The notes under the pieces: model-generated
Database searches by the model: none
What the model was told of the DNA's origin: nothing
The model's input: only the letters and a program-made list of their open reading frames with translations
Assembly (NCBI GenBank): GCA_964016885.1
Contig: OZ024740.1
Span: 56,296,001 to 56,360,000 of the forward strand
DNA length: 64,000 nt
Direction of reading: 5' to 3'
Source of the DNA: Eledone cirrhosa
Taxonomy: Eukaryota
Made by a program: the position numbers and the translations under genes
Shown: in pieces, positions 17,891-59,955 of the stretch
Position numbering within the stretch: the stretch's first letter is position 1
How the letters are laid out: each line of letters begins with the position of its first letter

Positions 17891-18038
17891 CTGATGATGT
17901 CATTCACAGCAATAATCATTCTCGGTTGTCGTGTCCACGAGTCTCGTACAACATAAGTTCTGCTACTGGTAAAATAAATCCCCTTGTTTTTAGTCGTGCT
18001 CCGAAATACAATTTCCATAATAATATTCTTTTCAACCA
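17891..18038 (-). CDS. bHLH-PAS-type gene, visible exon 5 of 5: PAS-B C-terminal (PAC) strands
   Basis: Acceptor ttactttcag, donor AG|gtgact (or read-through to TGA at 17887-17889). 148 bp, phase 1 to 2. Encodes (M)VEKNIIMEIVFRSTTKNKGIYFTSSRTYVVRDSWTRQPRMIIAVNDII, in frame with the upstream exon. Confidence 0.88.
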
Positions 18039-18199
18039 CTGAAAGTAAAACAGAAAACAATATATATGTATATAAGTTTGGTGGATAGAACTGGTCATTC
18101 CGTATCGCCAACCATGATGTAATATTTGGAAGAGCACTCAACGTTATGCAACTTATCCATCTTCGATGTTGAATCTTGTTGGTGGTGCGAGAATGCAGT

Positions 18200-18850
18200 T
18201 AATTATTATTGAGTAAAATAACAGGAGGTCCGACTGGGGAAATACGTTCAAAGATTTATTTCAGTAAACACTATGTACATTTCAGTGGCCAGGTTACGTA
18301 AGTTCCTGGTGACATCATCAGTTGTATATTGCATAATAGTTATATAATACAGGAATAATGGTAAACACAATCCAACAGACTATAAGGAGGGATAGTAGGT
18401 AAAAAAAACGCGGAAAAACGTGTTTGACTCGAAGGCGATCAAGGGGACCAGTTGTTTTCAGTTTGGCTGGCCACCTTCGAGTCGCTCTATGCTCAAAGCT
18501 AAATTCTAATGTTATTCTAAGTTAAGCCATCTTATACAGCTTCATATGCAAATGAGATTAATCACCTCATTTACACAGACGAGAAAACTATATATTCTCG
18601 CCTGTTTTCAAAGTCCAGCAGTTGCGAGAGCGGATGTGATCGTCCTGATGAGGACCTGTTCAGTTCCAAAGTTTGTCTTATTGGGCGTATGTATTTTACC
18701 ATAGCCTCGGTTTGGTAAACCAAATCAATGAATGACGTGCGGTGGAGGAATGAAACCACCGATGTCATGATCTTAAAACCAACACCCAACACACTAGGGT
18801 GTGTGCATTCGTAAATTATCAGGCTTGTTATAAATGTTGAGAATTATCCT
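18200..18850 (-). mobile_element. Probable Penelope-like element remnant (possible GIY-YIG C-terminal remnant plus hammerhead-bearing terminal repeat)
   Basis: Hammerhead motif at 18268-18325 lies downstream of degenerate ORF 18571-18792 (FKIM...TEAMVKYIRP...LELN). Boundaries are approximate. Confidence 0.35.
18268..18325 (-). ncRNA. Degenerate minimal type-I hammerhead ribozyme motif (Penelope-type)
   Basis: Minus strand: acaa-CUGAUGA-(stem II with ccagg/ccugg)-GAAAU-guac-AUA-gugu. Palindromic helix-III loop GUAC. The stem II closing pair is mismatched. Confidence 0.6.
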
Positions 18851-19572
18851 TGGAGTACTAACATATTCAGCACCAGCCAGATTTTTCAGGACCTTCCTTT
18901 TTAGGGCCACAAAATAATTCAGTCCCCAACTACTAACCCTCCACAAAGATCAGGTAATACACACAATGGTATATTGCTCCTATATTTCAAATGTTGCTAC
19001 TGCTACCCACACTAACGACTGATTAACGTATGGTATATACTCCCACGAGATTTCTTTCCATATATGTGACTGTGTTCGTTTTTGTTTTTGGTGTTTTTTA
19101 TTTTGTTTTGTTTTTCTGCAGCCGTTGACTTGTAAAAGTCCAAGAGGAAGGCGTTAACAACATCAATCTCACTAGTTTCAGAAGGACTGTGAAGGTCATG
19201 ATACTGTTCTTTCCTCCAAATCAATCCAGTTGCAAACGAATATATTAGTTTGTGTTTGTTCCGCAAAATTAGAAAGTGCTTTATATAAATAAAACCGTGT
19301 TAGTAGAATGTTCCTAAACCGAATTATTTCCTCTTATTCAAATGTTTAGTATGACACGGGTGAATCGTTTTCGTTGGAGTGTTTGAGATATTACTGTAAT
19401 TAAAAACTCACCGAAGTATGAGATCGGCGTTACGCAGCTGCACGAAACCTTCTGGGATGAAGAAATAATCAGATTACCGACCCAAACAGTTATGTACAAA
19501 ATACTTGTGGTAGATTCAAAGCGAAAAAAAGATAATTCCTACATTATAATGACTTTGTCAGCGGTAACTTAC

Positions 19573-19679
19573 TTTCCTTGTGGGCTTTAGCAACATATTC
19601 CATATCTCCACCATGAACAAATAAATAAGCTGATTTCCCCAGAACGTCTTTTATGTTGAAACCAGTCAGCTGGAGGAAC
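19573..19679 (-). CDS. bHLH-PAS-type gene, visible exon 4 of 5: PAS-B core
   Basis: Acceptor tacttttag, donor gtaagt. 107 bp, phase 2 to 1. Encodes (R)FLQLTGFNIKDVLGKSAYLFVHGGDMEYVAKAHKE, matching the PAS G-x-S-x-Y-x-F-V-H-x-x-D pattern. Confidence 0.92.
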
Positions 19680-20309
19680 CTAAAAGTATACATGTATAGA
19701 TACATATATACACATACACATGATATATATATATAGATTAGCATCAATTGAAAAAATGTTAAACATTTTATCAAGTCAAGAACACGGTTACTATATAATT
19801 ATAAATATATCCTATCAAATGTGTTATGTTTATAATACATGCTTAGGCGAATAGCCAATTTTTTTTCGGTCGTACTACGATATGAATCATTTCTAAATTA
19901 TTATGATACGTGTTAGGGGAAGCAGTGTTTGAATTACCTAGTTTGCTTATATATTTATTTTGTTTCATAATCCAGGTGGTGTTTGTCTTGTAAGCCTTAA
20001 TTTTTTTTGCCCTTCCGTAATAAGATGGCTATTGAAAAAATACGGCTTCTGTTTTAAAACGAGTTCAAAAATTAGTACAAACATTACAAAAGCATCAATT
20101 TGACATTTGTGATAACCTGCGAATGGTGCAGCAGTAGTTTCTGAAATATCGTTCCAGAGACGAATTCCATCAGAGCGAGGAGCCATGAAGAAAACTAAAG
20201 TCTGCTATAAATGAAGACTAGTCGCTTCGGCTACAAACCCCGGTACTGCGGCCGTCATGCAGAGGAAAGGAAGATAAAAAAAAATACCAGGGATTGTCCG
20301 GCCACTTCC

Positions 20310-20375
20310 TCTTCGCACTGGTTGCCGTCGAGACCTCAGGTGTCTTCGCACTGGTTGCCGTCGAGACCTCAGGTG
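20310..20375. repeat. Perfect 33-bp tandem duplication within a GC-rich island (about 20217-20570)
   Basis: TCTTCGCACTGGTTGCCGTCGAGACCTCAGGTG x2. Confidence 0.9.
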
Positions 20376-57355: not shown

Positions 57356-57566
57356 CTAAAAAAAAATAAATGCATTTTAAGATTAATAGTTTTTTTTAAA
57401 ACTATGTGATTTTTATGTGTTTCTGAAATTTCTTTTGAAGTTGAGGATCAATTAACTTTTAATTAGTAACTTTAAGTATTTAGTACACACAGAATAGGGT
57501 CAAATAAATCAATATATTGGTCAATATCTACAATAATATTAATTTATACATCTCCATATATATGCA

Positions 57567-58875
57567 CGAGGTACACTCAAGAAGGTTTGAGACTGTTTTC
57601 GGGTACTTTTAATTGACCTACATAACTGTCACTCTAATACATCCTTGATATGGTTAAAATAAGCAAACATGCTAAATCTTCTTTTTCCAGGTTGAAGGTT
57701 CGAGCTGATACAGCACTTTAAAAATTACCCGCCATACACGTCTTGTCCCAGCTGGCGTGTTCCTCAAAGCAGTCGGGATATGAGGATAACTTGGATGCAA
57801 TAAGGTTTTGTGTCAAGCTCGGCAATGATGCTGCAGAAACCTATAAAATGGTCAAAACTGCTTACGGACTAACTTTCATGAGCGGAACAACTGTTTCCGC
57901 AAGGATAAGAAAGTCTAGGAGGGCTGGAAGCAAGTGTGGGACGACAAGTGGTGTGGCAGAGCGAGGGACATAATGACGTCAAAGCTGGACGACAAAATTC
58001 GCAAATTTCAGCATGAGGTCCGTTGTGCGTCTCTTCTGACGATTGTTAAATAATTTGAATTGCCCGAGGGCACTGGACAGAGAGTCGTTCATCAGAATCT
58101 GAACATGCGCAAAGTCTTTGTAAAGCGTGTTCCCAGGGTGCTCAATGAAGACCAAAAGTGAAGGCTCGTTGATGACAGTATGGAGATGGTTAAGTGGATC
58201 ATTTCGAATCCAGGTTTTCTTGAGTTTCTGATAACCTATGACGAGAGCTGGATCTACTGTTGTGCTCCAGAGACCAGGAGAAAAAGTGCCCATTGTAAAC
58301 ATTCTGACTGACCCAAGAAGGCCCCGCAAAACAAGTCCACTGGAAACTCATGATAAACGCATTCTTTGACAGCAAGAGAATCATCTACATCCACTGGGTA
58401 TCCCACGGCCAGACACTCAACAAAGAGTACCATGTAGAAGTTTTGAGGTAGTTCAGAAAAAGATTTAGTCGCAAGATACCAAAACTCTTCAAGTCTGGTC
58501 AGTGGCACCTACACAAGGACAATGCTCCCTGCCACCAATCCATCCTGGTGACCAATTACTTGGCCGATATGGGGATCAACAATGTCCTTTATTCTCTCTA
58601 TAGTCCAAACTTAACTCGATGTTATTTCTGGATGTTCCCGAAGCTGAAGGAGAAGCTCAGGGGTATCCATTTTGAGGATCTGGGGGAGATGAAGGAGGCT
58701 GTGACAAGCGCCCTCGACACCTTCACTTTGTAGTTCTACAATGGGTTCTTCCAGAGTGCCACAACTGCATTGAATTTGGAGGACCCTGCTTTGAGGGAGA
58801 CTAGAGTTTTGTACTGATCTGAGTTAAATAAGTGTCTCTATGATAAAAGTCTCAAATGCTCTTATGTGTACCTCG
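57567..58875 (+). mobile_element. Mariner DNA transposon, degenerate transposase
   Basis: TIRs CGAGGTACAC... / ...GTGTACCTCG followed by TA. Fragments AIRFCVKLG..ETYKM, ITYDESWIY, WHLHKDNAPCH, YSPNLTRCYFWMFPKLKEKLRG. 1.3 kb. Confidence 0.93.
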
Positions 58876-59586
58876 TATGCACTATGAAATCATAGTTTAC
58901 ATGTGTGGAGTTTTTTTAGATTTATATTCTTTGTAAACACATACGGGTACATATATATATACAGATACACACATATCTCTTTCTTTCTCTCTCTCTCTCT
59001 CTCTCTCTCTCTCTCTCTCTCTATATATATATATATATATATATATATATATATATATACATATATAAGAAGATAGTTTCCTCTATATACACATAGACTT
59101 AAGTATATACGTGTACGTTTAGTGTTATATATATGTATACATAGATAATTATATAAGTATAATATAAATATTATATTATAGAAATCTAAATAACGTATTT
59201 ATTGTATGAGGGAAAGTAAGAAAGAAAGAGAGAGTATATTTAAATGTGAAATAGGCCCAAAGGAACTAATGTAAGGATTCTCCCCTCTCCATGTATATTT
59301 ACGCTAACATGAGAGGGCCGTATTATACTACATATGTGCAAATACCAAATTTAACAATGTGAGCTATTTGGGTTGCTTAGAACTCCATGATAATCTCCAC
59401 TGGCAGCATACAACTTCAAACTGTAATCTTAAACTAGAGATTCAAAAGATTAACTAAAATTGTAACCGAGAATTTTACAAGGGTGTACCAAAGTGCTAGT
59501 TCGTTAAAGATTCCTGTAATATGAATGCTGATAATTCTGGTGATAAAGATTTGTAAAATGCTACCCACTTCGTTCTATATTATATA

Positions 59587-59761
59587 ATTGTTTCTACTTT
59601 TGGCACAAGGCCAGCAATTACCCAGTACATTACTGGTACTTTATTTTATCGACCCCATAAGGATGAAAGGCAAAGTTAACCTCGGCGGGATTTGAACTCA
59701 GATCGTAAAGGGACGTAACTATGCTGGAAAGCATGTCCGACCCTCTACCGATACTGCCAAT
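59587..59761 (-). mobile_element. SINE, slightly 5'-truncated, about 100 bp from an exon donor
   Basis: Reverse complement of the SINE consensus, ending at ACTGCCAAT. Confidence 0.9.
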
Positions 59762-59864
59762 ATATAATAAAATTTGAATAAGAACAAAAGAGTATAGAAA
59801 GGGAAGTAGTTACAAAAGAAAAATTTTGTAATTGTATGAGTTATATTATATATCTCGTACAAAC

Positions 59865-59955
59865 CATTTTCATCAGTTATGTGGAATTGTTCCTCAAGTA
59901 CTTGAGCATCGTTTGGATGGATTAAATTATACATGGATTGACCAATGACATCAAT
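59865..59955 (-). CDS. bHLH-PAS-type gene, visible exon 1 of 5: PAS-A core
   Basis: Acceptor ttttttccttcaag, donor G|gtttgt. 91 bp, phase 0 to 1. Encodes IDVIGQSMYNLIHPNDAQVLEEQFHITDEN (G-Q-S-x-Y-x-x-I-H-P-x-D). Confidence 0.92.

What the first reader, a model, noticed from the sequence alone, without database searches (positions are those of the whole stretch)
17891..59955. Hidden, highly divergent PAS-A/PAS-B transcription-factor gene spread over 42 kb
Seen: five GT-AG exons (91, 141, 139, 107, 148 bp) with compatible phases splice to a stop-free 208 aa: IDVIGQSMYNLIHPNDAQVLEEQFHITDENERGRLQNHKEFTIRLIKKNKFHPCLYETLHAMGQIKCCKSEGKIEMKEETWLIAILKPVIQPLYKEISIFAETMQIQYISRHDFNGRFLDITPRFLQLTGFNIKDVLGKSAYLFVHGGDMEYVAKAHKEMVEKNIIMEIVFRSTTKNKGIYFTSSRTYVVRDSWTRQPRMIIAVNDII. 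Introns are 2509, 6921, 30475 and 1534 bp. Established: tandem PAS domains with these motifs define bHLH-PAS factors. Inference: KEISIF...YISRH and YETLH..G recall Clock and Methoprene-tolerant, but the PAC segment lacks the usual Y-R-F/L...W-x-W pattern. It may be a lineage-specific paralogue with an altered PAS-B ligand pocket. The bHLH exons were not found and are presumably beyond the right edge.
Basis: partly seen in the sequence, partly recalled or inferred. Interest (0 to 1): 0.72.

Follow-up and report, generated by a model that had tools for sequence, protein, structure and literature searches.

The report
Octopus hormone-receptor gene with extra micro-exon
This is the octopus counterpart of the insect juvenile-hormone receptor gene (Methoprene-tolerant, Met), labelled in databases as a hypoxia factor; it carries an extra 42-base exon that adds a loop to the domain that binds hormone in insects and would likely change how, or whether, it senses a ligand.

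Summary
The five exons are real, on the minus strand, with the stated lengths and AG/GT ends. The gene is not hidden: orthologues at 83% identity are annotated in two Octopus species as 'HIF-1alpha-like'. That label is wrong. A tree puts the protein inside the Methoprene-tolerant (Met) family (99/94), among molluscan Mets, and rejects grouping with Clock or HIF. Three Met-family queries hit this locus best in the genome, and true HIF-alpha and Clock lie elsewhere. The missing W-x-W pattern is normal for Met (0 of 51 rows have it). All five members of this octopod-centred clade carry it, including a spliced transcript. They also end 22-41 residues after PAS-B, and octopods have Phe at a site where Ile-to-Phe hampers juvenile-hormone binding in insects. 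Ligand, partner and exon skipping are untested. One test (p=0.06) does not exclude a place beside rather than inside Met. Verdict: known family, lineage-specific variant of the hormone-binding domain, moderate interest.

The parts
1..64000 (-). The whole window lies inside one 11-exon gene (coding span about 85 kb, G000:C1:56288937-56373916). Outside the window: N-terminal exon C1:56373819-56373916, bHLH exon C1:56368348-56368505, linker exon C1:56363532-56363605, first PAS-A exon C1:56360624-56360713, last coding exon from C1:56289051 down
   Evidence: tblastn of annotated orthologues on the window plus 100 kb each side; splice sites and an open frame of about 392-398 aa
59865..59955 (-). Exon 5 (91 nt), PAS-A core
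57215..57355 (-). Exon 6 (141 nt), PAS-A C-terminal strands
50155..50293 (-). Exon 7 (139 nt), last PAS-A strand, linker and first two PAS-B strands (holds S254 and F262 equivalents)
48405..48446 (-).
   Evidence: AG acceptor with 18 of 18 pyrimidines and a GT donor; keeps the frame; matched in P0001-P0004; modelled as a low-confidence loop
19573..19679 (-). Exon 9 (107 nt), PAS-B helices (V280 and V297 equivalents)
17891..18038 (-). Exon 10 (148 nt), PAS-B C-terminal strands (S318, S330, A347 equivalents)

Best explanation
This is the single octopod orthologue of Methoprene-tolerant (Met), an intact bHLH-PAS-A-PAS-B transcription factor gene with a lineage-specific 14-residue insert in PAS-B and a very short tail, which likely works as a lipid-ligand-regulated heterodimer on E-box-type DNA. 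Shown here: gene structure, open frame, family placement, single copy, insert, pocket residues, short tail. Inferred from insect Met: the basic region (it keeps the Glu of E-box binders) reads an E-box-like half site; a partner such as SRC/Taiman or Bmal/cycle supplies the other half and, since this protein has only about 40 residues after PAS-B, most of the activation surface; a small lipid in the PAS-B cavity, most plausibly methyl farnesoate or a related farnesoid, switches partner binding. The insert is predicted to loop out of an intact PAS-B fold and so would tune dimerisation, chaperone contact or ligand entry rather than destroy the domain. Odds: Met orthology about 0.9; micro-exon used in mRNA about 0.9; ligand-regulated about 0.5; farnesoid ligand specifically about 0.35.
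For: Tree of 59 rows x 320 columns: the five-row clade sits in a 35-row Met clade (99/94) and a spiralian Met clade (95/85). Named anchors: 'methoprene-tolerant' Haematobia P0118 and 'Juvenile hormone methoprene-tolerant' Coccinella P0069; nearest relatives are abalone, limpet, mussel, scallop, chiton and nemertean proteins. AU tests reject a clade with Clock (p=0.00064) or HIF (p=3e-73). Profile scores: spiralian Met 262 bits, arthropod Met 214, HIF 138, Clock 134. Three of three Met-family queries hit this locus best in G000; no second Met-like bHLH exon was seen. HIF-alpha and Clock exons lie on other contigs. The insert is in 5 of 5 clade rows; 134 of 141 scored rows have the 18-residue spacing. 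It is in 4 of 4 unnamed short-contig records whose ORF crosses every junction. Both models keep the PAS-B fold and leave the insert as a loop with pLDDT under 50. Of 7 Tribolium mutagenesis sites, 2 are identical and 4 are smaller. Met orthologues in Platynereis, Lottia and Lymnaea are published (PMC5127642, PMC4066832; passages).
Against: An AU test does not reject the clade lying outside all other Met rows (p=0.0615), its stem is long (1.06), and SRC/Taiman, ARNT and NPAS4 were not in the tree. Only 5 of 14 pocket sites match beetle Met, although the other 18 spiralian rows match at 2-7. Octopods have Phe at the I262 site, and I262F (Tribolium) and I411F (Aedes) hamper JH III binding (PMC9392760 passage). 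I found no paper showing ligand binding by any molluscan Met. There is no RNA from this genome: the runs laid were genomic. The genome searches score only the best candidates, so a second copy is not strictly excluded.
Confidence: 0.72

Rival explanations
1. It is the Met orthologue but no longer a hormone receptor: the Phe at the I262 site, the insert and the lost tail make it a ligand-independent partner, or a competitor that ties up SRC/Taiman or Bmal/cycle without activating genes.
For: F at the I262 site in 4 of 4 octopod rows and 0 of 18 other spiralian rows; I-to-F there hampers JH III binding in two insects. The tail is 22-41 aa, against 240-722 aa in 17 of 18 other spiralian rows; none of 17 long tails matched the 264-kb region beyond one E=0.96 chance hit. 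Tail-less bHLH-PAS repressors such as IPAS are recalled, not tested.
Against: Four other pocket sites are smaller, and the summed side-chain volume of 14 sites (1982) is below that of beetle Met (2027) (a crude proxy). One of 26 arthropod Met rows (P0031) has F there naturally, and the sister row P0004 has V. Some arthropod Met records also have short tails (93-151 aa). The DNA-binding basic region is conserved.
Confidence: 0.3
2. It is a cephalopod-specific paralogue beside, not inside, the Met family, with the true Met lost or unseen.
For: AU p=0.0615 for keeping the clade outside the other Met rows; long stem branch; only about 30-34% identity to other molluscan Mets.
Against: The best tree nests it beside gastropod and bivalve Mets (92/90) as the species tree predicts. 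It is the best genome hit for 3 of 3 Met queries. It shares spiralian-Met traits in PAS-B: F-R in place of Y-R (16 of 18 other spiralian rows), His at the L301 site (18 of 18).
Confidence: 0.07
3. It is a HIF-1alpha-like or Clock-like factor, as the database names say.
For: RefSeq names; the best sequence hits among solved structures are HIF-1a and HIF-2a (E=9e-28), but that list held no Met chain.
Against: AU rejects both. No LxxLAP degradation motif in 0 of 5 rows against 7 of 7 HIF rows. The basic region has the Glu that all 7 HIF rows lack. True HIF-alpha and Clock exons lie elsewhere in G000.
Confidence: 0.01
4. The gene, or the micro-exon alone, is decayed or a prediction artefact.
For: The insert diverges fast (13, 12, 6 and 5 of 15 residues shared with P0001, P0003, P0002, P0004). 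The start codon is uncertain. The Argonauta model lacks two PAS-A exons.
Against: Eleven exons join without a stop, with 83% identity to two Octopus proteins. The insert sits at the same place in five lineages' records and in short contigs that read as spliced RNA.
Confidence: 0.03

Closest known systems
Octopus sinensis XP_029639012.2 and O. bimaculoides XP_014788389.1 ('hypoxia-inducible factor 1-alpha-like'), Argonauta hians GAB1608461.1
   Same: One-to-one orthologues: 83%, 83% and 70% identity, same insert, same short tail.
   Different: They are misnamed. No paper in the library cites these accessions (0 papers).
Spiralian Met (Platynereis met, Lottia Lg237855, Lymnaea; amphioxus bHLHPAS-orphan)
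   Same: Same clade of bHLH-PAS factors lost in vertebrates (PMC5127642, PMC4066832 passages); shared PAS-B traits.
   Different: None of 18 other spiralian rows has the insert; 17 of 18 have tails of 240-722 aa; none has Phe at the I262 site.
[quoted passage not shown]
   Same: Domain order, basic-region Glu, and V280, V297, H256, Y252, N349 equivalents. Ligand binding and Tai pairing are shown for insects (PMC4498814 passages).
   Different: 5 of 14 pocket sites identical; T254S, L318S, T330S, C347A, I262F; the insert; ligand binding untested here.
HIF-alpha, Clock
   Same: bHLH-PAS fold.
   Different: Rejected by tree tests and motifs; separate genes exist in the same genome.

Membership tests
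Met (Methoprene-tolerant) orthology group | bHLH + PAS-A + PAS-B architecture | tested here: met
   Pfam HLH, PAS, PAS_3, PAS_11 over cut-off on the 83%-identical orthologue; all exons found in G000
Met (Methoprene-tolerant) orthology group | Clade with named arthropod Met to the exclusion of Clock, Bmal, HIF, Sim, Trh, AhR | tested here: met
   99/94 support; names; Clock and HIF groupings rejected. Caveat: a place sister to all other Mets is not rejected, p=0.0615; SRC/Taiman not in the tree
Met (Methoprene-tolerant) orthology group | Best reciprocal match and single copy in the genome | tested here: met
   3 of 3 Met-family queries hit this locus first; no second Met-like bHLH among 12 matches; searches are lower bounds
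Met (Methoprene-tolerant) orthology group | Basic region with Glu-Lys-x-Arg-Arg (E-box type) | tested here: met
   5 of 5 clade rows
Functional JH/MF receptor | Conserved PAS-B pocket residues (Tribolium T254, I262, V280, V297, L318, T330, C347) | tested here: inconclusive
   S, F, V, V, S, S, A: 2 identical, 4 smaller, 1 equal to a binding-impairing change. Numbering was transferred by counting on beetle row P0033, where all 7 residues matched
Functional JH/MF receptor | Binds JH III or methyl farnesoate | not testable with these tools
   Needs a binding or reporter assay
Functional JH/MF receptor | Ligand-dependent pairing with Taiman/SRC | not tested
   No complex was modelled. A PAS-B exon at G000:C23:7944666 looks SRC-like by recall only; its solved-structure hits were weak Bmal/ARNT chains
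HIF-alpha | LxxLAP oxygen-dependent degradation motif and long tail | tested here: not met
   0 of 5 clade rows against 7 of 7 HIF rows
HIF-alpha | Clade with HIF-alpha | tested here: not met
   AU p=3e-73
Clock/NPAS2 | Clade with bilaterian Clock | tested here: not met
   AU p=0.00064; the genome's own Clock is on C28

The most novel reading that the evidence does not exclude
Coleoid cephalopods rebuilt their juvenile-hormone-type receptor by gaining a micro-exon in the ligand-binding domain. The exon is a cassette: skipping restores the ancestral PAS-B (frame kept, 18-residue spacing, the Pro-Arg seen in gastropod Mets), inclusion gives a form with altered ligand or partner response. This splice switch sets sensitivity to a farnesoid hormone that times maturation and the one-time breeding and death of octopuses, as methyl farnesoate does in the semelparous worm Platynereis.
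Probability: 0.1. Interest if true: 0.85.

Novelty: new variant of a known kind. Interest (0 to 1): 0.42.

Why it matters
It corrects a database label that hides the cephalopod Met from anyone searching by name, and warns that 'HIF-1alpha-like' hits in octopus hypoxia studies may be this gene. It gives a concrete candidate receptor for asking whether farnesoid hormones act in cephalopod maturation and semelparity, and whether insect-growth-regulator pesticides could act on cephalopods. The insert sits at a PAS-B position whose spacing is almost invariant across bHLH-PAS proteins, so it is a natural experiment on a ligand-binding domain. Without a binding result it remains a well-placed member of a known family with an unusual loop.

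Tried and rejected
RNA evidence from this species: no RNA holder was listed. Five runs laid on exons 5-8 (X1, X2, X4, X6) and on the micro-exon (X3-X6) gave contigs that run through introns or match only repeats, so they say nothing about splicing; organism B did not cover the micro-exon.
A six-residue copy of the start of exon 9 at 20895, flanked by AG and GT, was judged chance: 11 such exact six-residue words of the protein occur outside exons in 264 kb.
Origin of the micro-exon by duplication of the end of exon 7: not supported (813 of 2000 shuffles score as well).
A hidden long C-terminal exon: 17 spiralian Met tails gave only one E=0.96 hit in the 264-kb region; tails diverge fast, so this is weak.
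Fold search and the Atlas return bHLH-PAS proteins in general and do not separate families. Cavity volume could not be computed because model coordinates are not returned.
No complex was modelled: no full cephalopod SRC or Bmal record was in hand, and a pass would mirror solved bHLH-PAS dimers.
Earlier findings of the scan: nothing. The primary mutagenesis paper (Charles et al. 2011) is not held, so its results come from a passage in PMC9392760.
Rows dropped before the first tree: 10 of 152 (4 prokaryotic PAS sensors, 6 fragments or fusions). The careful tree used 59 hand-picked rows.
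Full report
Observation. The five exons are on the minus strand at the stated places, each between AG and GT, and they join to the stated 208 residues. Singly they are too short for Pfam cut-offs; two of five give weak PAS hits. The window is G000:C1:56296001-56360000 in a 3.0-Gb genome.

The gene. One exon as query found two annotated octopod proteins: Octopus sinensis XP_029639012.2 ('hypoxia-inducible factor 1-alpha-like') and Argonauta hians GAB1608461.1; the first clusters with O. 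bimaculoides XP_014788389.1. The eleven exons join without a stop into about 392-398 residues over about 85 kb, so the whole window is inside this gene. Identity is 83%, 83%, 70% and 53% to P0001, P0003, P0002 and the unnamed P0004. The start is unsure: the codon matching the Octopus start Met reads Ile here, and a Met follows six codons later. That the genome is an octopod is inferred from these relatives.

Family. A full HMMER scan of 1.84 billion representatives ranks, after the cephalopod rows, proteins of abalone, mussel, limpet, scallop, chiton and a nemertean, then arthropod proteins. Their database names are mixed (NPAS2-like, Clock-like, cycle-like, HIF-like), but 2 of 10 looked up are named Methoprene-tolerant. 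A quick tree of 143 rows and a careful tree of 59 chosen rows with added Clock outgroups agree: the five-row clade lies in a Met clade (99/94), in its spiralian part (95/85), beside gastropods and bivalves (92/90). Grouping with Clock (p=0.00064) or HIF (p=3e-73) is rejected. Holding it outside all other Met rows is not rejected (p=0.0615), and SRC/Taiman, ARNT and NPAS4 were absent, so 'inside' versus 'sister to' Met keeps some doubt. Profile scores favour Met (262 and 214 bits against 138 or less). In G000, three of three Met-family queries hit this locus first. A PAS_11 scan and a bHLH scan found other bHLH-PAS genes on eight other places; two were confirmed as HIF-alpha and Clock, the rest (Bmal, ARNT, Sim, Trh, AhR, NPAS4, SRC) I named from recalled motifs. 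No second Met-like gene appeared, within the limits of searches that score only the best candidates. The protein lacks the HIF LxxLAP motif (0 of 5 against 7 of 7) and has the basic-region Glu that HIF lacks.

W-x-W is absent from all 51 Met-family rows examined, and F-R replaces Y-R in 16 of 18 other spiralian rows. It is a family trait.

The missed exon. The 42-nt exon at 48405-48446 has a strong acceptor (18 of 18 pyrimidines) and is phase 2-2. It sits in an intron whose position and phase recur in three paralogous exons of the same genome, so it was gained inside an old intron (inferred). It adds 14 residues (13 in P0004) between the second strand and first helix of PAS-B. Among 141 scored rows, 134 have an 18-residue spacing there, one has 17, the five clade rows have 31-32, and one HIF-group row has an unrelated 20-residue insert; 7 of 7 Clock rows have 18. 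All 7 database records that span the site include it, among them four near-identical unnamed records on contigs of 1.2-1.4 kb whose frame crosses every junction and which therefore read as spliced RNA (one species-level cluster, not four independent cases). No record skips it, but skipping would keep the frame and restore the usual spacing. Two AlphaFold2 models (P0001, mean pLDDT 81; P0004, 85) keep the PAS-B fold and leave the insert as a loop with pLDDT under 50.

Pocket and tail. With Tribolium numbering transferred through a beetle row in which all listed residues matched, the seven mutagenesis sites read S254, F262, V280, V297, S318, S330, A347. I262F in Tribolium and I411F in Aedes hamper JH III binding (PMC9392760, passage). 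Phe is there in 4 of 4 octopod rows, 0 of 18 other spiralians, 1 of 26 arthropods; P0004 has Val. Four sites are smaller than in insects, so the cavity may be reshaped rather than closed. The protein ends 41 residues after PAS-B (22-41 in the clade) against 240-722 in 17 of 18 other spiralian rows.

Mechanism. In insects Met binds JH or methyl farnesoate in PAS-B, pairs with Taiman/SRC and activates JH-response elements (PMC4498814, passages). I infer the same logic here, with the partner supplying activation and the insert tuning the domain. Ligand regulation I put near even; the main rival is a ligand-independent or inhibitory Met.

Prior knowledge. Met orthologues in annelids, gastropods and amphioxus are published (PMC5127642, PMC4066832; passages). 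Methyl farnesoate holds back reproduction in the semelparous worm Platynereis, and a snail responds to it (PMC8848322, passages). PMC9181382 and PMC12965855 (passages) do not mention a cephalopod Met. Nine full-text searches (listings only, and only the top 20 rows) showed no paper on a cephalopod Met or this insert. The library lacks most subscription journals, I read no supplements, and a 2024 J Mol Biol review of insect bHLH-PAS factors (recalled, not seen) may already list cephalopod Met. The link between the octopus optic gland and death after breeding is recalled; only a title was seen.

Verdict. New variant of a known kind; interest 0.42.

Noticed in passing
window 13-15162 (array starts about 1.3 kb left of the window): A 16-kb satellite array with a 20-21-bp unit (86% matches) lies inside intron 10 of this gene; it explains the strong GC skew and the long repetitive ORFs.
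   Followed up: partly
window 29176-32595 (-), 40192-43782 (-), 60351-62117 (+), 22316-23164 (-): LINE-type retrotransposon pieces in the introns: ORFs with endonuclease and reverse-transcriptase motifs (motifs recalled). The 40192-43782 copy has two long frames of 695 and 500 aa. Described only.
   Followed up: no
window 20876-20905 (-): A 30-nt AG..GT-flanked piece encodes the same six residues as the start of exon 9; judged chance.
   Followed up: yes
P0005, P0006 (Octopus vulgaris models): The O. vulgaris annotation splits this gene into two wrong models, one fused to a DUF229 protein and named HIF-1alpha-like, one named single-minded 2. No DUF229 match lies within the 264 kb examined here.
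   Followed up: partly
P0002 (Argonauta hians): The model lacks two PAS-A exons; either a prediction gap or a real loss.
   Followed up: no
P0007-P0037 and others: Many molluscan and arthropod Met-clade proteins are named Clock-like, NPAS2-like, cycle-like or HIF-like in public databases, so the family is widely hidden by labels.
   Followed up: partly
P0030, P0045: The hemichordate-type Met rows have Asp in place of the basic-region Glu and much changed pocket residues.
   Followed up: no
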